Shown here in pieces: positions 2,114 to 12,867 of a DNA stretch of 46,497 nucleotides. The notes under the pieces were generated by a model, which saw nothing but the letters and a program-made list of their open reading frames with translations, had not been told where the DNA came from and made no database searches. How positions within the stretch are numbered: the stretch's first letter is position 1; every line of letters starts with the position of its first letter. A program made the position numbers and the translations under genes. The stretch comes from an uncultured Alphaproteobacteria bacterium (GTDB lineage Bacteria > Pseudomonadota > Alphaproteobacteria > UBA2136 > UBA6156), in assembly GCA_937928525.1 (NCBI GenBank), contig CALFWJ010000160.1, positions 1 to 46,497 of the forward strand. The letters run 5' to 3'.

Positions 2114-2368
2114 ATGGAAACCAAAAGCGCACAGATACGCATTTTACTTGAGGCTGGCAAAGACCGTGAGGCACTACGCATTGCGGCTAAGTTCTTTGAC
2201 CGCAGCGATGAAACAGGGCTATACAAAAAAGCGCATGAGGGCTTGCTTAACCCAGGATTTTACAAACAGCTGGGTGTTGATGTAGACTTAACCTACAAGC
2301 AAGCAGTACAAAACTTACGTGAGCGTTTCCTTAATGACCAAAAAGACCACCAAAAAGCAGCCGGCTAA
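2114..2368 (+). CDS. Hypothetical protein (84 aa)
   Basis: ORF in the track with a plausible helical sequence. It is co-oriented and tightly packed; no recognisable motif. Confidence 0.55.
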   Translation: METKSAQIRILLEAGKDREALRIAAKFFDRSDETGLYKKAHEGLLNPGFYKQLGVDVDLTYKQAVQNLRERFLNDQKDHQKAAG

Positions 2369-2753
2369 GAAGGTTACAAAGCCAAGCCACCGCGCCACCA
2401 AAGAGCGGCGCGAAACGGTTGGTGCTATGAGTGCGTACGGAATCCCGCAAAAGGAAATTGCAAACTGCCTTGAGATTGACGTTAAAACGCTGCGCAAGCA
2501 TTACCGTGAGGAGCTGGACACAGCCCAGGCAAAAGCCAATGCAGCCGTTGCCGGCAAGCTGTACAAAAAGGCCATGGGTGGCTGCACCAGGAGCATGATT
2601 TTTTGGCTTAAGACGCGCGGCCGTTGGAGCACCAAGCTTGAGGTAGAAAACACCGGGCTTATAGGCAATGTGCCGCTGCCGCCGCCGGATAAAGAGTTTA
2701 AAGACCCTATTGAGGCTGCAAAATATTACAAGGAAATGGTCAAAGAACTTTAG
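2334..2753 (+). CDS. HTH protein resembling terminase small subunits / phage HTH regulators
   Basis: Lies in ORF 2319..2753 (GTG 2319 or ATG 2334). YGIPQKEIANCLEIDVKTLRKHY is an HTH. The C-terminal IFWLKTRGRW motif is common in small terminase-like proteins. It lies 8.5 kb from TerL, so its role is uncertain. Confidence 0.55.
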   Translation: MTKKTTKKQPAKKVTKPSHRATKERRETVGAMSAYGIPQKEIANCLEIDVKTLRKHYREELDTAQAKANAAVAGKLYKKAMGGCTRSMIFWLKTRGRWSTKLEVENTGLIGNVPLPPPDKEFKDPIEAAKYYKEMVKEL

Positions 2754-2825
2754 CCGTGCTATATTGTTTTTACGGGCAGCAAGCAGGCCAGCTTAAACCC
2801 GTTTTGGTTGCCAAAACTGTGTACA

Positions 2826-2857
2826 ACACCCAGGTGCAATGCCTGGGTGTTTTTTTT
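2826..2857 (+). terminator. Rho-independent terminator
   Basis: Perfect 9-bp stem ACACCCAGG/CCTGGGTGT with a 7-nt loop, followed by T7 (2851-2857). Confidence 0.85.
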
Positions 2858-3649: not shown

Positions 3650-3988
3650 GTGCCAGAGCCTTGGGAACAAAAATACGATTGTGCAGAGCATGCTTTTTTT
3701 TGCATGGTGGACAGGCAGCGCGCCCAGGCAGATGGAGCGCGCCCAAAACGAGGCAGCTTTGAGCGTGCCGGTGGCGGCCTTGATGTGCAAATAGCTATTG
3801 AAAAATTGCACCGCGCCGGCGTTATAGGCATGGATCACATAAGAGTTATCAAGCACTACGGCAAGCGCGGCCTGCGCCCAGACGAGCACCACCCAAAGGA
3901 AAAGCGCGCTGCTATGCTTTGGGATGAGGTTATGGAGCAATTAGGCGCGCAGCTGCACAAAAAAGGGCTTGTAGACAAGCAATATTGA
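3650..3988 (+). CDS. Hypothetical protein (112 aa)
   Basis: GTG start immediately after the upstream TAA (TAAGTG), which suggests coupling. No recognisable domain. Confidence 0.55.
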   Translation: MPEPWEQKYDCAEHAFFCMVDRQRAQADGARPKRGSFERAGGGLDVQIAIEKLHRAGVIGMDHIRVIKHYGKRGLRPDEHHPKEKRAAMLWDEVMEQLGAQLHKKGLVDKQY

Positions 3989-4013
3989 CACAGGCGTTGC
4001 ACACCTGCACAAT
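3985..4013 (+). promoter_or_regulatory. Candidate promoter TTGACA-17-CACAAT predicted to give a leaderless mRNA for the MarR-like gene
   Basis: Consensus TTGACA at 3985-3990, a 17-nt spacer, CACAAT at 4008-4013. ATG 4020 lies 7 nt after the -10 and has no Shine-Dalgarno. Confidence 0.45.
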
Positions 4014-4019
4014 GAGCGC

Positions 4020-4865
4020 ATGGAACACTTCCGCACCATATACACAGCATTTTGCTTAGAGCACTACCCGGACAAAACCATTACTGATTTTGAGCGTGAC
4101 GTTGCCACGCTTGCGCCGTTGGTTGCCAACGCAGCCGCCAACCGCACTACGCAGGACACGCTTATAGACACACAGCTGCTTGGCCAGGCCGAGGGCAGCA
4201 CCCAGCATAAAACCCAGAGCGAAAAGGCAGAGCAGGAAGCTGAGCCGACCGAATCACCAAAGGGGCAGGAGGCAGAGGAGAAACCAACGCCCACCCCGGC
4301 AGGCGGCTTTGACCCGCTAGAAGGGATTAAGAGTAAACCAATGGCCACACGCACTGGTAAAAGCTACGAAAAAACGAGCAAAAAAAGCGGCTGGCGCAAA
4401 GACAACGCCGCCGGCCTGGCCGCCTACCGGGCGCGTAACGCAACACCAAAAGAGAACACGGCCGAAACCGAGGCAGAGCTGGCAAGGGCAAAAAACACGC
4501 CAGCTATTGAGCTGCCGCCGGCCAATGAGGACGACAGGCGCAAGGGCAGGGATTTAACCGCCTTGCAGGCCGCAACCCTTACGCATATTTGCCAGGAAAA
4601 AGACCGCCGCCCCACAGAGGAGGTGCGCCACAGCCATATTGCTGAGATTATGGGCTGCGTAACCCAAAACGTAAGCGGTAGCGTAAATGGCCTGGTTAAA
4701 AAAGGCTTTGTTGAGGTGCAACCGAGCACCGAGGATAAGCGAGCGCGCAGCATTGTACCGCTGCGCCGGGCATGCGGTAAACGCTACGAGCCGCCGCAAA
4801 AAATTGATGGCATAACCCGCTGCGAACCCGCGCGCGCCATAGGTTATGGCATAGACTGCCATTAA
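4020..4865 (+). CDS. Protein with low-complexity N-terminal half and C-terminal MarR-type winged HTH
   Basis: LTALQAATLTHICQE...IAEIMGCVTQNVSGSVNGLVKKGFVEVQPSTEDKRARSIVPL matches the MarR/wHTH recognition helix plus wing. Confidence 0.7.
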   Translation: MEHFRTIYTAFCLEHYPDKTITDFERDVATLAPLVANAAANRTTQDTLIDTQLLGQAEGSTQHKTQSEKAEQEAEPTESPKGQEAEEKPTPTPAGGFDPLEGIKSKPMATRTGKSYEKTSKKSGWRKDNAAGLAAYRARNATPKENTAETEAELARAKNTPAIELPPANEDDRRKGRDLTALQAATLTHICQEKDRRPTEEVRHSHIAEIMGCVTQNVSGSVNGLVKKGFVEVQPSTEDKRARSIVPLRRACGKRYEPPQKIDGITRCEPARAIGYGIDCH

Positions 4866-10024: not shown

Positions 10025-10377
10025 TTTTAAGCGATGAAAGCACCAAGCACATGAGCGATGAGCAGCTGCTTTTGCAGTGCGTAAAAGAGTACGCCGACCC
10101 TGGCAATTATGAGCTGTACGAAAAGGACTACGGCGTTGGCCGTTTTGTTGAGCGTATGCCGGCCATAGCAACGGGCAAAGGCTGCCACGCACGCCGCACG
10201 CTTGAGGTTTACAATGAGCGGAAAAATGGCATGGCGGTAACACCAATGCAGAGTGCCTACCTGGGCATGCACAAGCTGCTAGACCGTATGCAGCAATATG
10301 AGGAGTTTGAGCAGCTGCCAATGCACTTGCAAGACGAAATATTGAGAGTAAAAAAGGAGGCAGATAAATGGCTTTGA
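10015..10377 (+). CDS. Hypothetical protein (120 aa)
   Basis: ORF with a GAGGAGG RBS. Confidence 0.6.
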   Translation: MPLVLSDESTKHMSDEQLLLQCVKEYADPGNYELYEKDYGVGRFVERMPAIATGKGCHARRTLEVYNERKNGMAVTPMQSAYLGMHKLLDRMQQYEEFEQLPMHLQDEILRVKKEADKWL

Positions 10378-10514
10378 GGTACAAAATATTGGTAGGCGTT
10401 GTGGCGTGCTTTTTTGCCGCCCTGGGCTTTCATACAAGCGCAGCGGATATTGAGGCTTGCAAACAGGCTACCGGATGGACAGCCGAGCGGTGCGCTGTAG
10501 AGTTGACACGTTAG
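10368..10514 (+). CDS. Small secreted or lipoprotein-like peptide (48 aa, not in the ORF track)
   Basis: ATG 10368 lies 7 nt after AAGGAGG. It translates to MALRYKILVGVVACFFAALGFHTSAADIEACKQATGWTAERCAVELTR, with a signal-peptide-like N-terminus (possible VVAC lipobox). Confidence 0.55.
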   Translation: MALRYKILVGVVACFFAALGFHTSAADIEACKQATGWTAERCAVELTR

Positions 10515-10532
10515 GCGTATTGCGCCTATATT
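10503..10532 (+). promoter_or_regulatory. Strong promoter TTGACA-18-TATATT with TAGGCG-N5-CGCCTA palindrome in the spacer
   Basis: Consensus -35 at 10503-10508, -10 at 10527-10532. Palindrome arms at 10512-10517 and 10523-10528. Confidence 0.65.
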
Positions 10533-10538
10533 TAATTT

Positions 10539-10645
10539 AGGCACGGCGGTAATGCGCTATGGTTCACTGGCCTTTTAAGCTGCCACACATAGCTAGCAAC
10601 CGCACAGGGTTGCACCGCTGTGCAGGATAGCCGCCGTGCTTTTAA
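10539..10645 (+). ncRNA. About 100-nt structured leader or short RNA closed by a 9-bp helix and ending in a U-tract
   Basis: It starts at the predicted TSS. GCACGGCGG (10541-10549) pairs with CCGCCGTGC (10631-10639) and is followed by TTTT. Inner hairpins are GCTATG/CATAGC (10556-61/10588-93) and two mutually exclusive hairpins within 10596-10623. Confidence 0.4.
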
Positions 10646-10661
10646 CTTTAGGAGAAAATAT

Positions 10662-10805
10662 ATGTGGTTAAGTGACGAACAAGAGGCGGCCAAACACAAC
10701 GCGCCGAAGCCAAAAAAGCCAATGTGCTACCCTACGCTGCACGCAGCACTTATGTGCACAAGCAGCCTTACAAAAAGCTTTTGGATTGGGAGCGAAAATG
10801 AATAG
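10662..10805 (+). CDS. Small hypothetical protein (47 aa)
   Basis: ATG 10662 lies 7 nt after AGGAG. Codon usage is better than in the overlapping GTG 10672 frame. It ends in an ATGAATAG overlap with the next gene. Confidence 0.45.
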   Translation: MWLSDEQEAAKHNAPKPKKPMCYPTLHAALMCTSSLTKSFWIGSENE

Positions 10806-11043
10806 CGCATTAGAACGTATGGCGGGCATGCCACAACAAAGCAGTGTGCCAGAGGTGCGCTTTACCATGCAGTTTTTTGAGTATAGCCACCTGCCAGAGC
10901 ACCTGCAGCAAGTTAGTGCGCCTTTTGGCGATTTAGCCCAAGCATTACATGAGTCGCTGCCAAACAATGCCGAAAAACAAAAGGCCTTAAACAAGCTGCT
11001 TGAGGCCAAGGATGCCGCAGTGCGTGCTTTGGTGGCAAAATGA
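10798..11043 (+). CDS. Hypothetical protein (81 aa)
   Basis: In-frame ATG 10798 follows GGGAG. The helical protein ends in KLLEAKDAAVRALVAK. The N-terminal part of ORF 10672..11043 looks non-coding. Confidence 0.6.
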   Translation: MNSALERMAGMPQQSSVPEVRFTMQFFEYSHLPEHLQQVSAPFGDLAQALHESLPNNAEKQKALNKLLEAKDAAVRALVAK

Positions 11044-11246
11044 CACCAGCTCAATTTAAAGATGTGCGCCTAAGCAACAAAATGACGCAGCAAGCGTTTG
11101 GTGTGGCTTTAGGCATGCCAAGCAAGAGTGCCGGCCGCAGCGTGCGTGCTTATGAATCCGGCGAAAGAAAAATACCAGGAGTGCTGGCCACGGCTGTGCG
11201 TCTTGTGGAGCAATACGGGTTTGTAAATGGCGAATCCTTGGGATAA
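11040..11246 (+). CDS. XRE-family HTH protein (68 aa)
   Basis: SNKMTQQAFGVALGMPSKSAGRSVRAYESGERKIP is a typical HTH_3/Cro-C1 signature. ATGA overlap upstream; overlaps the TerL start by 20 nt. Confidence 0.75.
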   Translation: MTPAQFKDVRLSNKMTQQAFGVALGMPSKSAGRSVRAYESGERKIPGVLATAVRLVEQYGFVNGESLG

Positions 11247-12867
11247 TGGCACACCAGATTACATGGCCGAATTTACGCGCCGGCGCAAGCTGTACAAACG
11301 CATTGCCGGCGACCCGGAGGCCTGGGAAAGACTAAAGCCATTTTACAAGGCCAACCCGGCGCAATGGATTAACGATTTTTGCGTTACATACGACCCCCGC
11401 AACAAACCGCCCAAACCTAAAACACTGCCGTTTTTGCTGTTCCCCCGCCAGGAGGAGTTTATTGCATGCCTGCAAGAGTGTGTGGAGCTTGGCGAGTCGC
11501 TCATTGTGGAGAAAAGCCGCGACATGGGCGCAAGTTGGCTGTGCTGCGCATACAGCGTGCACCAATGGTATTTTAACTCAGGCGCAAGCATTGGCTGGGG
11601 TAGCCGTAAGCAAGAGCTGGTTGATAAGCTGGGCGACCCCGATTCCATATTTGAAAAAATGCGCATAATTATTGACCACTTGCCCAGCTTCCATATACCG
11701 GAAACCTTTGGCCTGGGCAGCCATGCTAACTTTATGAAGCTGGTAAACCCGGCCAACGGCTCAACGGTTACTGGTGAGGCTGGCGACAATATCGGCCGTG
11801 GTGGCCGCAGCATGATGTACTTTAAGGATGAATCCGCACACTACGAGCGCGCAGAGAAAATTGAGGCAGCCCTGGGCGACAACACAGACGTACAGGTTGA
11901 TATTTCAAGTGTAAATGGCACTAACAACGTGTTTTACCGGCGCGCGCAGGCGGCCGGCGTTTGGTATCCCAAAGGCAAGTTGCTGCCGCCGGGCACGACT
12001 CGCAAGTTTATTATGGATTGGCGCGACCACCCGCTAAAAGACCAGGCCTGGTATGACCGCCGCAAAGCCAAAGCAGAAAATGAGGGCTTGCTGGCAGCTT
12101 TTGCACAGGAGGTTGACAGGGATTATAGCAGCGCGGTTGAGGGCATAATAATACAGCCAGGCTGGGTTAAGGCTGCTATTGATGCGCACATAAAGCTAGG
12201 CATAGAAGACGATGGCGAAAAAATAGGCGCGCTGGACTTGGCCGATGAGGGCAGGGATAAGCACGCATTTGCCGGCCGGCATGGCGTGGTGCTTAAAAAG
12301 TGCTACGATTGGCCGCGCGGCGATGGAGGGCGAGCAGCCAGGCTTGCCGTTGATGAGTGCGTGCAGCTGAGCGCAACCGAATTGTACTATGATTCCATTG
12401 GTGTTGGCGCGGCCGCAAAAAGCGAAACAAACCGCATGCAAGAGCACGGCGAGCTGCCCAGGCATTTAACTGTGCGGGGCTGGAACGCCGGCGCAAGCCC
12501 TCAAGAGCCTGAAAAAAACATCATTAAGGGGGATGCAGAGTCGCCTAAAAACAAAGATTATTTTGAAAATTTGAGCATACAGGCCTACCATTTGCTTGCT
12601 CAAAGGTTTTACAAAACGTACCTGGCCGTAACAAAAGGCCGTGAATACCCGCACGATGAGCTAATAAGTATTAGCAGTGATATTGAGCAATTAGATGAAA
12701 TTGTGATAGAGTTAAGCCAGGCAACCCAAACCTTTAGCAAAAAAGGCAAAAAAATGCTGCAAAAAACGCCGGAAGGGGGCAAAAGCCCTAACTTAGCGGA
12801 CTGTATTAAAATGTGCTACTGCCCTGTGCGTAAGGGCGTGGACTATAGCAAATTGGTGACAATGTAA
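11227..12867 (+). CDS. terL: Terminase large subunit
   Basis: 546 aa immediately upstream of the portal. It has an ATPase-type VEKSRDMGASW segment and a C-terminal nuclease-sized half. Gene order is TerL-portal-MuF. Confidence 0.85.
   Translation: MANPWDNGTPDYMAEFTRRRKLYKRIAGDPEAWERLKPFYKANPAQWINDFCVTYDPRNKPPKPKTLPFLLFPRQEEFIACLQECVELGESLIVEKSRDMGASWLCCAYSVHQWYFNSGASIGWGSRKQELVDKLGDPDSIFEKMRIIIDHLPSFHIPETFGLGSHANFMKLVNPANGSTVTGEAGDNIGRGGRSMMYFKDESAHYERAEKIEAALGDNTDVQVDISSVNGTNNVFYRRAQAAGVWYPKGKLLPPGTTRKFIMDWRDHPLKDQAWYDRRKAKAENEGLLAAFAQEVDRDYSSAVEGIIIQPGWVKAAIDAHIKLGIEDDGEKIGALDLADEGRDKHAFAGRHGVVLKKCYDWPRGDGGRAARLAVDECVQLSATELYYDSIGVGAAAKSETNRMQEHGELPRHLTVRGWNAGASPQEPEKNIIKGDAESPKNKDYFENLSIQAYHLLAQRFYKTYLAVTKGREYPHDELISISSDIEQLDEIVIELSQATQTFSKKGKKMLQKTPEGGKSPNLADCIKMCYCPVRKGVDYSKLVTM

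What the first reader, a model, noticed from the sequence alone, without database searches (positions are those of the whole stretch)
10503..10650. Near-consensus promoter followed by a ~100-nt multi-helix RNA ending in a U-tract, directly upstream of the packaging operon
Seen: the promoter TTGACA-18-TATATT lies at 10503-10532. The predicted start site coincides with the 5' arm of a 9-bp closing helix (10541-10549 pairing with 10631-10639), which is followed by TTTT. That helix encloses a GCTATG/CATAGC hairpin and two mutually exclusive hairpins: 10596-10601/10608-10613 versus 10602-10607/10618-10623. The AGGAG RBS of the first downstream ORF begins 7 nt after the U-tract. Downstream lie three small genes, then TerL, portal and MuF. 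Established: lambdoid late operons are controlled by a constitutive promoter plus a nearby terminator (PR'-6S RNA-tR') that is read through only after Q modification. HK022 uses cis-acting put RNA structures for the same purpose. Inference: this is either an antitermination-controlled late leader or a discrete small RNA. No Q or N homologue is recognisable here, so the factor or mechanism would be new for this phage type.
Basis: partly seen in the sequence, partly recalled or inferred. Interest (0 to 1): 0.6.

Follow-up and report, generated by a model that had tools for sequence, protein, structure and literature searches.

The report
Phage small RNA in tRNA slot
A strong, conserved promoter at the head of a phage's packaging genes starts transcription exactly at the base of a roughly 100-nt folded RNA; sister phages carry a tRNA gene at that same spot, so this is most likely a new small stable RNA gene and not a lambda-style antitermination switch.

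Summary
TTGACA-18-TATATT (10503-10532) is the best sigma-70 match in the window. The predicted start site (A10539) is the first base of a 12-bp terminal helix (10539-10550/10630-10641). That helix encloses two hairpins and is followed by U4 and the RBS.

Ten related uncultured phages keep the same promoter in front of the same packaging module. Downstream of it they carry different cargo:
- a tRNA-Met(CAT) in four (starting at +1 in three);
- nothing in four;
- an AT-rich insert in one;
- a homologue of this RNA in one (L008, TerL 86% identical).

Between the window and L008:
- the terminal helix shows three double compensatory changes and no broken pair;
- the first inner hairpin is replaced, with a 25-nt indel;
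- the second hairpin plus the junction is 35/36 identical, against 65-81% in flanking genes.

There is no match to Rfam, tRNA or c4 RNA, and no Q homologue.

Best reading: a cargo small-RNA gene co-transcribed at the 5' end of the packaging operon. The antitermination reading is not supported. Cargo-free relatives run the same operon, the U-tract is short, and the alternative fold seen in the window is not conserved in L008.

Function is unknown.

The parts
10368..10514 (+). 48-aa ORF with an N-terminal hydrophobic segment and the C-terminal motif C-x10-C..ELTR*. Its last codons (TTG ACA = Leu-Thr) are the -35 hexamer.
   Evidence: Homologous ORF ends are seen in L008, L009, L010, L011, L012, L014 and L045. 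There is no PHROG or Pfam hit.
10503..10532 (+). Sigma-70-type promoter TTGACA-18-TATATT, with predicted +1 at A10539.
   Evidence: Best hit in the window, 11/12. Conserved in 10 relatives with a 17-18 nt spacer. In L011 the Leu-Thr codons changed and a new TTGACG was created over the stop codon with the same 18-nt spacing.
10512..10528 (.). Dyad or hairpin TAGG-N9-CCTA inside the promoter spacer, overlapping the stop codon and the first two bases of the -10. Possibly an operator or a weak terminator of the upstream genes. It is not part of the RNA.
   Evidence: One search lists it as terminator-like (7 pairs). One search shows the dyad at the same place in 9 of 10 relatives, with differing inner sequence.
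10539..10550 (+). P1 5' strand. It starts at the predicted transcription start.
   Evidence: Pair probabilities are 0.94-1.0 in the isolated RNA.
10550..10553 (+). Junction J1/2, UAAU, invariant between the window and L008.
10554..10597 (+). P2, a variable peripheral hairpin (GCTATG/CATAGC plus UGGC/GCCA). In L008 it is replaced by a short GGGGG-UACG-CUUCC hairpin, with a 25-nt indel.
10596..10626 (+). P3, the sequence-conserved hairpin. The MFE form is GCACAGGGU-UGC-ACC(G)CUGUGC. The alternative hairpin is GCAACC/GGUUGC.
   Evidence: 35/36 identical with L008 across 10596-10631, against 65-81% in flanking genes. Energies are -13.4, -10.6 and -9.1 kcal/mol for the three local forms.
10624..10630 (+). 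Junction J3/1, AGGAUAG (AGAAUAG in L008).
10630..10641 (+). P1 3' strand. Its last two pairs use the first two U of the U-tract.
10640..10649 (+). UUUU followed by the AACUUU linker. A weak terminator tail and/or an AU-rich single-stranded processing site.
   Evidence: UUUUAAC is conserved in L008. AACTTTAG(G/A)AGGA is also found after the tRNA in L041.
10650..10805 (+). AGGAG RBS (10650-10654) and the first ORF of the packaging operon (ATG 10662, 47 aa). It is followed by an 81-aa ORF, a 68-aa HTH protein, TerL (11227-12867), portal and MuF.

Best explanation
The roughly 103-nt segment 10539-10641 is a cargo gene for a small, stable, three-way-junction RNA. It sits at the +1 position of a conserved sigma-70 promoter that heads the packaging and head operon of an uncultured 46-kb phage.

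Host RNA polymerase is predicted to start at A10539. The first transcribed base would then already be part of the terminal helix P1, which pairs the 5' and 3' ends of the RNA.

P1 (covarying) and P2 (replaceable) act as scaffold. P3 and the two junction strands (UAAU, AGRAUAG) form the sequence-specific functional core.

The RNA is made as the 5'-terminal part of the operon transcript. It is set free either by partial termination at the short U-tract or by endonucleolytic cleavage in the AU-rich linker UUUUAACUUU. The tRNA-Met that occupies the same slot in sister phages must be released from the same transcript in the same way.

Shown here: the promoter and its conservation, the coincidence of +1 with the helix base, the covariation in P1, the conservation of P3, the non-coding nature of the segment, and the tRNA in the homologous slot.

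Inferred: that a discrete RNA accumulates, how its 3' end is made, and that it acts in trans. Its target or partner is unknown.
For: Promoter: it is the best in the window and is conserved in 10 relatives. It was re-created in L011 after the codons that contained it changed.

Slot equivalence: tRNA-Met(CAT) follows the same promoter in L009, L012, L013 and L041. In L009, L012 and L013 tRNA position 1 lies 6-7 nt after the -10. The P1 base in the window and in L008 lies at the same distance (corrected by +1).

Structure:
- Independent MFE folds of the window and L008 give the same P1/P2/P3 architecture, z = -2.9 and -3.8.
- P1 has 12 pairs: 9 invariant, 3 changed on both sides, none broken.
- A 25-nt indel in P2 excludes a conserved reading frame.
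- P3 plus J3/1 is 35/36 identical, against 79-81% in the HTH and TerL genes and 65% in the upstream ORF. The binomial p is about 0.002.

Cargo character: the element is absent from nine of ten relatives that share the promoter and the operon.
Against: - Only two members are known, so the covariation rests on one sequence pair.
- The RNA has no canonical terminator of its own, and the RBS follows 7 nt after the U-tract. It could therefore function purely as a 5' UTR.
- No target, partner or known family was identified.
- In the window, though not in L008, a competing fold exists.
Confidence: 0.5

Rival explanations
1. Regulated leader or attenuator. P1 plus UUUU is an intrinsic terminator in front of the packaging genes. 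Read-through would be controlled by a phage factor, a put-like RNAP modification, or a ligand or protein bound by the conserved three-way-junction core.
For: - A GC-rich 12-bp helix is followed directly by UUUU and then the RBS.
- No other promoter lies between 10643 and TerL, so all packaging transcription must pass the element.
- The conserved junctions and P3, with covarying P1 and variable P2, match the usual pattern of aptamers.
- In the window the nascent RNA up to 10633 folds into an alternative in which the P1 5' strand pairs with 10615-10623. That would delay terminator formation.
Against: - Relatives with the same promoter and operon have no terminator there: four have none at all and four have a tRNA.
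- The tract is only U4, with two U paired. Real terminators in the window carry 7-8 U, and the consensus scan does not call it.
- The alternative fold is not conserved: L008 gives -20.5 against -36.4 kcal/mol.
- No Q homologue was found.
- No -10-like pause signal lies downstream of +1.
- No sequence in the element can mask the RBS.
- No convincing + strand terminator follows until about 32 kb.
Confidence: 0.17
2. Purely cis-acting 5'-terminal stabiliser. A structured 5' end whose first nucleotide is base-paired protects the long packaging-operon mRNA from 5'-end-dependent decay (RppH/RNase E). No separate RNA species or trans function is involved.
For: The +1 position coincides with the first pair of P1 in both the window and L008. 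P1 is maintained by compensatory change. The RNA stays attached to the operon unless it is processed.
Against: This does not explain the near-perfect sequence conservation of P3 and the junctions, since any stable hairpin would do. Four relatives do without any 5' structure. The tRNA in the same slot would be cut off, not kept.
Confidence: 0.15
3. DNA-level site. The conserved 10596-10623 palindromes (CAACC-N6-GGTTG, GCACAG-N10-CTGTGC) would be an operator for the adjacent HTH protein, or a packaging recognition site next to the terminase genes.
For: The palindromes are perfect, they lie about 600 nt upstream of TerL, and their sequence is fully conserved. A small HTH gene overlaps TerL.
Against: Compensatory changes in P1 between strands 80 nt apart are not explained by a protein-binding DNA site. 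Relatives with the same HTH-TerL pair lack the sequence. The conserved dyad in the promoter spacer is a better operator candidate.
Confidence: 0.06
4. Degenerate remnant with no function, for example a decayed tRNA or other insert that happens to fold.
For: Only two carriers are known. The slot accepts unrelated inserts, such as the AT-rich one in L010.
Against: P1 covaries, P3 is conserved at 97%, and both copies have fold z-scores of -2.9 and -3.8. There is no tRNA signal even at lowered ARAGORN thresholds or at Rfam E<=10.
Confidence: 0.05

Closest known systems
Phage-encoded tRNA genes, here the tRNA-Met(CAT) of sister phages L009, L012, L013 and L041
   Same: Same genomic slot and same promoter. 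The 5' end of the terminal helix lies at the predicted +1 in L009, L012 and L013. The 5' and 3' ends are paired. The gene is co-transcribed with the packaging operon and the RBS follows within 10-25 nt.
   Different: No cloverleaf, T-loop, anticodon loop or CCA. There is no ARAGORN or Rfam tRNA signal. It is a three-way rather than a four-way junction, has a 12-bp terminal helix, and ends in UUUU.
Lambda PR'-6S RNA-tR' with Q antitermination
   Same: A strong constitutive-looking promoter heading late genes, followed within about 100 nt by a helix plus U-tract. A short RNA could result.
   Different: No Q homologue and no -10-like pause element after +1. The terminator-like helix is a long-range closing stem with U4. 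Relatives express the same operon without it.
HK022 putL/putR cis-acting antitermination RNAs
   Same: Two stem-loops transcribed immediately downstream of a promoter, acting without a recognisable protein factor.
   Different: In put RNAs both stems are sequence-constrained and there is no enclosing helix. Here one stem (P2) is freely replaced. No downstream terminators that would need suppression are evident. Homology cannot be tested with these tools.
P1/P7 c4 and P4 CI RNAs (Rfam C4, RF01695), small RNAs processed out of an operon leader
   Same: A small structured RNA encoded at the 5' end of a phage operon transcript and released by processing.
   Different: No Rfam C4 hit. No conserved complementary target sites downstream: the single 11-nt match at 10802-10812 is at chance level and is absent from L008.
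Candidate structured RNAs catalogued in phage genomes (PMC10690425; Weinberg-type motif surveys)
   Same: An intergenic, covarying, promoter- or gene-proximal motif of unknown function in an uncultured phage.
   Different: Not matched by any Rfam 15 model. The family currently has two members, too few for such surveys.

Membership tests
tRNA / tRNA-like | Cloverleaf with a T-loop and a 7-nt anticodon loop, detectable by ARAGORN or the Rfam tRNA models | tested here: not met
   ARAGORN found 0 genes in the window and only nonsense hits at an 80% threshold. There is no Rfam tRNA-clan hit at E<=10.
Any Rfam 15 family (riboswitches, ribozymes, c4, 6S, Y RNA and others) | Covariance-model score at or above the gathering threshold | tested here: not met
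   No hits over the whole window. At E<=10 only freshwater-2 appears (17.8 bits against a gathering score of 49.9), and it matches mainly the RBS.
Lambda-type Q antitermination unit | Q protein encoded by the phage | tested here: not met
   PF06530, PF03589 and PF06323 give no match at E<=1 in the contig or genome.
Lambda-type Q antitermination unit | Sigma-70-dependent promoter-proximal pause element (-10-like hexamer in the first 10-25 transcribed bases) | tested here: not met
   The sequence from +1 is AGGCACGGCGGTAATGCG. The only candidate, TAATGC (TAATTA in L008), lacks the conserved final T (by inspection).
Lambda-type Q antitermination unit | Efficient intrinsic terminator shortly downstream of the promoter | tested here: inconclusive
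   The 12-bp helix is followed by only U4, two of which are paired. The scan does not call it. Genuine terminators in the window have 7-8 U. Efficiency needs in vitro transcription.
HK022 put RNA | Two conserved stem-loops that make RNAP terminator-resistant in cis, with downstream terminators to be overridden | not testable with these tools
   No put model is available. P2 is not conserved. No convincing + strand terminator follows until about 32 kb.
c4/CI-type processed antisense RNA | Loop sequences complementary to conserved sites in the downstream mRNA | tested here: not met
   The complementarity scan gives only chance-level 10-11-mers. The 10802-10812 match involves bases not conserved in L008.
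Canonical intrinsic terminator | Short-loop GC-rich hairpin immediately followed by at least 5 U in 8 | tested here: not met
   Not listed by the scan. The helix encloses 79 nt and the tail is UUUUAACU.
Repeated or mobile element (MITE/REP) | Multiple copies in the genome | tested here: not met
   Single copy in the 925-kb assembly, which is 55% complete.

The most novel reading that the evidence does not exclude
The RNA is the founding member of a new class of phage-encoded, trans-acting stable RNAs. It would be a three-way junction with a conserved P3/junction core that binds a host or phage protein or RNA, for example as a decoy for a defence or translation factor. It would have displaced a leaderless tRNA-Met gene at the +1 of the late promoter, which would mark that position as a dedicated 'RNA cargo slot' in this phage clade.
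Probability: 0.25. Interest if true: 0.65.

Novelty: new variant of a known kind. Interest (0 to 1): 0.42.

Why it matters
If the reading is right, this uncultured phage clade has a promoter whose +1 position serves as a docking site for stable-RNA cargo: a tRNA-Met in four sister phages and this unclassified RNA in two. That gives three things:
- a clean natural comparison (same promoter and operon, with or without cargo) for testing what the RNA does;
- a candidate new RNA family with a defined conserved core (UAAU, P3, AGRAUAG);
- a predicted example of tRNAs transcribed without a 5' leader in a bacterial virus.

It also removes the suggestion of a new Q/N-independent antitermination system, which the comparative data do not support. 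With two members and no expression data, the significance is moderate.

Tried and rejected
Searches for more members, all negative:
- Phage GenBank records, blastn of 10350-10820.
- IMG/VR, exact P3 22-mer.
- IMG/VR, degenerate GCAACC-N6-GGTTGCACCG: 20 hits, all unrelated.
- Promoter-junction pattern in IMG/VR and in GTDB genomes: only L012's contig again, plus two chance hits.
- Covariance model R1 on all held loci: only the two known copies.
- Own genome: single copy.
- Host family, order and a 400-genome sample of the class: the phage was not found.

Other searches:
- TerL-based locus searches in IMG/VR, GTDB and JGI metagenomes gave only distant relatives. The useful relatives came from the protein database plus contig look-ups.
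- Searches with the 48-aa and 120-aa upstream proteins found only themselves.

Readings considered and rejected:
- tRNA or tRNA-derived.
- Leader peptide: an 8-codon ATG ORF at 10552 is absent from L008.
- N-terminal extension of the 47-aa ORF from GTG10620: a stop codon interrupts it in L008.
- Conserved antisense target.
- RBS masking: no CUCCU in the element.
- Minus-strand terminator.
- attP: there is no integrase on the contig.

The 70-nt leader before the tRNA in L041 contains CUGG-GGUUGCCG-CCAG, which is reminiscent of the P3 apex. It does not fold significantly (z = -1.3) and does not score with R1.

Full report
**1. What is in the sequence**

The window is one whole contig (C160, 46,497 bp) of a 55%-complete, small-genome MAG. 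It has the layout of a complete tailed-phage genome:
- a minus-strand replication and recombination block at 34.5-46.5 kb, with primase/VapE, two helicases, RecT and a PD-(D/E)XK nuclease;
- a long plus-strand block holding small genes, then TerL (11227-12867), portal, MuF, head and tail genes.

There is no tyrosine integrase on the contig. The closest cultured phages share only about 50% TerL identity.

The finding lies in the 147-nt gap between a 48-aa ORF (10368-10514) and a 47-aa ORF (ATG 10662).
- TTGACA-18-TATATT (10503-10532) scores 11/12. It is the only 11/12 hit in 1-40000 on either strand.
- Seven bases after the -10 lies A10539. This is the first base of a helix that folding extends to 12 pairs (10539-10550 with 10630-10641), using the first two U of the UUUU at 10640-10643.
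- Inside are a long hairpin P2 (10554-10597) and a hairpin P3 (10600-10626).
- The RNA folds at -47.3 kcal/mol, z = -2.9 against dinucleotide shuffles.

**2. Relatives**

Nucleotide and pattern searches in phage GenBank records, IMG/VR, GTDB genomes and JGI metagenomes found almost nothing. The large protein database gave TerL relatives of 60-86% identity, and I fetched their contigs.

Ten of them (L008-L014, L039, L041, L045) carry the same promoter in front of the same HTH-TerL-portal-MuF module.
- In most, the -35 TTGACA is the Leu-Thr codon pair of a conserved C-terminal ...ELTR* motif of the small upstream ORF.
- In L011 those codons have become CTT ACC. A new TTGACG now overlaps the stop codon and keeps the 18-nt spacer to TATAAT.

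This is good evidence that the promoter itself is under selection.

**3. The slot after the promoter**

What follows the -10 differs between relatives:

| Loci | What follows the promoter |
|---|---|
| L011, L014, L039, L045 | nothing; the RBS follows directly |
| L010 | an AT-rich 150-nt insert |
| L009, L012, L013 | a tRNA-Met(CAT) gene |
| L041 | a tRNA-Met(CAT) gene after a 70-nt leader |
| L008 (TerL 86%) | a homologue of the window's RNA |

In L009, L012 and L013 the first base of the tRNA acceptor stem lies 6-7 nt after the -10. In the window and in L008 the first base of P1 lies 7 nt after it (the script's printed '-10 ends' values are one too low). The predicted start site therefore coincides with the base of the terminal helix of whatever stable RNA occupies the slot.

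**4. Window versus L008**

Independent folding of L008:741-820 gives the same three-way junction, at -36.8 kcal/mol and z = -3.8.
- P1 has 12 pairs: 9 invariant and 3 changed on both sides (A-U to G-C, and G-C to U-A twice). None is broken.
- P2 is replaced by a short GGGGG-UACG-CUUCC hairpin, with a 25-nt length difference. This also excludes a conserved ORF on either strand.
- UAAU after P1, and the 36 nt from 10596 to 10631 (P3 plus AGRAUAG), are conserved at 35/36. The comparison values are 79-81% in the HTH, TerL and portal genes and 65% in the upstream ORF. The binomial p is about 0.002.
- The one substitution breaks only the outermost predicted P3 pair.

The overall pattern is a covarying closing stem, a dispensable peripheral stem, and sequence-fixed junctions and inner hairpin. 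This is what one expects of an RNA with a specific partner.

**5. What it is not**

- No Rfam 15 family matches, over the whole window at gathering thresholds or over 10300-10900 at E<=10.
- It is not a tRNA or tmRNA.
- It is not repeated in the genome.
- It has no conserved antisense target. An 11-nt match to 10802-10812, at the start of the 81-aa ORF, is at the chance expectation and involves bases that differ in L008.
- A covariance model built from the two copies finds no further member in any held locus.

**6. Terminator and antiterminator question**

Facts that could support a terminator role:
- The helix plus UUUU sits in front of the RBS.
- No other promoter precedes TerL.

Facts against it:
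- The consensus scan does not call it a terminator.
- The tail is only U4 (two of them paired) followed by AAC. The clear terminators of this genome have 11-12-bp stems and 7-8 U (2825-2851 on the + strand, 34513-34488 on the - strand).

The two 'mutually exclusive hairpins' belong to two global folds in the window. The P1 5' strand GCACGGCGG can also pair with CCGCUGUGC (10615-10623; 8 Watson-Crick pairs plus 1 G-U), enclosing the GCAACC/GGUUGC hairpin.
- This fold scores -39.0 against -46.9 kcal/mol for the main fold.
- It is the MFE of the nascent RNA up to 10633.
- It can dominate when 160 nt are folded.

In L008 the compensatory changes that preserve P1 destroy this alternative (-20.5 against -36.4 kcal/mol), and P1 stays at probability 0.98 or higher in all contexts. 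The switch is therefore not a conserved property.

Several further points argue against a lambda-Q-like or put-like antitermination device:
- Eight relatives drive the same operon with no terminator-like element in the slot: nothing in four and a terminator-less tRNA in four.
- Three Q-protein families are absent.
- There is no pause-inducing -10-like element after +1.
- No convincing downstream + strand terminator occurs before about 32 kb.

**7. Best explanation and rivals**

I favour a cargo small-RNA gene (confidence about 0.5). It would be transcribed from +1 as the 5' end of the packaging-operon RNA. It would be released by partial termination or by cleavage in the AU-rich UUUUAACUUU linker, as the tRNA in sister phages must be. 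P3 and the junctions would form its functional surface.

Rivals:
- a regulated attenuator or riboswitch-like leader (0.17);
- a purely cis 5' stabiliser (0.15);
- a DNA-level operator or packaging site (0.06);
- a functionless remnant (0.05).

**8. Novelty**

Thousands of unexplained structured-RNA candidates are already catalogued in phages (PMC10690425), so one more is not surprising in itself.

The less ordinary points are the cargo slot at +1 of a conserved promoter, the exchange between a tRNA and an unclassified RNA there, and the predicted leaderless tRNA transcripts.

A small ORF in that position directly upstream of TerL, alignable with the window's HTH protein, recurs in most relatives whether or not the small ORFs are present. 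It therefore looks like a fixed part of the packaging module.

Noticed in passing
L009:3723-3797, L012:764-840, L013:3708-3782 (and L041:2083-2159 after a 70-nt leader): tRNA-Met(CAT) genes sit directly behind the conserved promoter, with tRNA position 1 lying 6-7 nt after the -10, at the predicted start site. This implies leaderless tRNA transcripts that need no RNase P cut. Read by eye in L009 and L012, positions 1-72 are paired and there are not three consecutive G-C pairs in the anticodon stem, so these look like elongator Met or Ile2 types, not initiators.
   Followed up: partly
window 10503-10514 and the homologous ORF ends in L008-L014 and L045; L011:2975-3017: The -35 hexamer TTGACA doubles as the Leu-Thr codons of a conserved ...ELTR* C-terminus of a 48-aa hydrophobic/Cys-x10-Cys ORF. 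In L011 the codons changed, and a new TTGACG overlapping the stop codon restores the promoter at the same spacing.
   Followed up: yes
window 10512-10528 (same position in 9 of 10 relatives): A dyad TAGG-N9-CCTA fills the promoter spacer. It is also a 6-7-bp hairpin, -9.4 kcal/mol in the window. It could be an operator for the conserved small HTH protein or the MarR-domain protein, or a weak terminator of the upstream genes. The spacer is a conserved, slightly long 17-18 nt.
   Followed up: partly
window 10550-10560 versus 10802-10812: An 11-nt perfect complementarity exists between UAAUGCGCUAU (J1/2 and the start of P2) and codons 2-5 of the 81-aa ORF. It is at the chance expectation for the window and is not conserved in L008, which lacks that ORF.
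   Followed up: yes
window 10541-10549 / 10615-10623 / 10631-10639: P3's 3' strand CCGCUGUGC differs by one base from P1's 3' strand CCGCCGUGC, as if one arose by duplication of the other. This creates a competing fold in the window only.
   Followed up: yes
L041:2016-2084: The 70-nt leader between the promoter and the tRNA contains the hairpin CUGG-GGUUGCCG-CCAG, which resembles the P3 apex ACAG-GGUUGCACCG-CUGU, and ends in UGUUUUAUAAC. It does not fold significantly and does not score with the covariance model. It may be a remnant or a coincidence.
   Followed up: partly
window 2319-2851: A 144-aa ORF with a weak small-terminase PHROG hit (phrog_309) is followed by the strongest canonical terminator of the contig (12-bp stem, 8 T, 2825-2851). 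It lies far from TerL, while a 68-aa HTH gene overlaps TerL by 20 nt.
   Followed up: no
window 4020-4865: A 281-aa protein with a C-terminal MarR-type winged helix is preceded by TTGACA-17-CACAAT (3985-4013). It is a candidate phage transcription regulator.
   Followed up: no
whole window: The contig looks like a complete, integrase-less phage genome of about 46 kb binned into a small-genome MAG of about 0.9 Mb. No relative of the phage was found in 16 family, 28 order or 400 sampled class genomes, so the host assignment by binning is unverified.
   Followed up: partly
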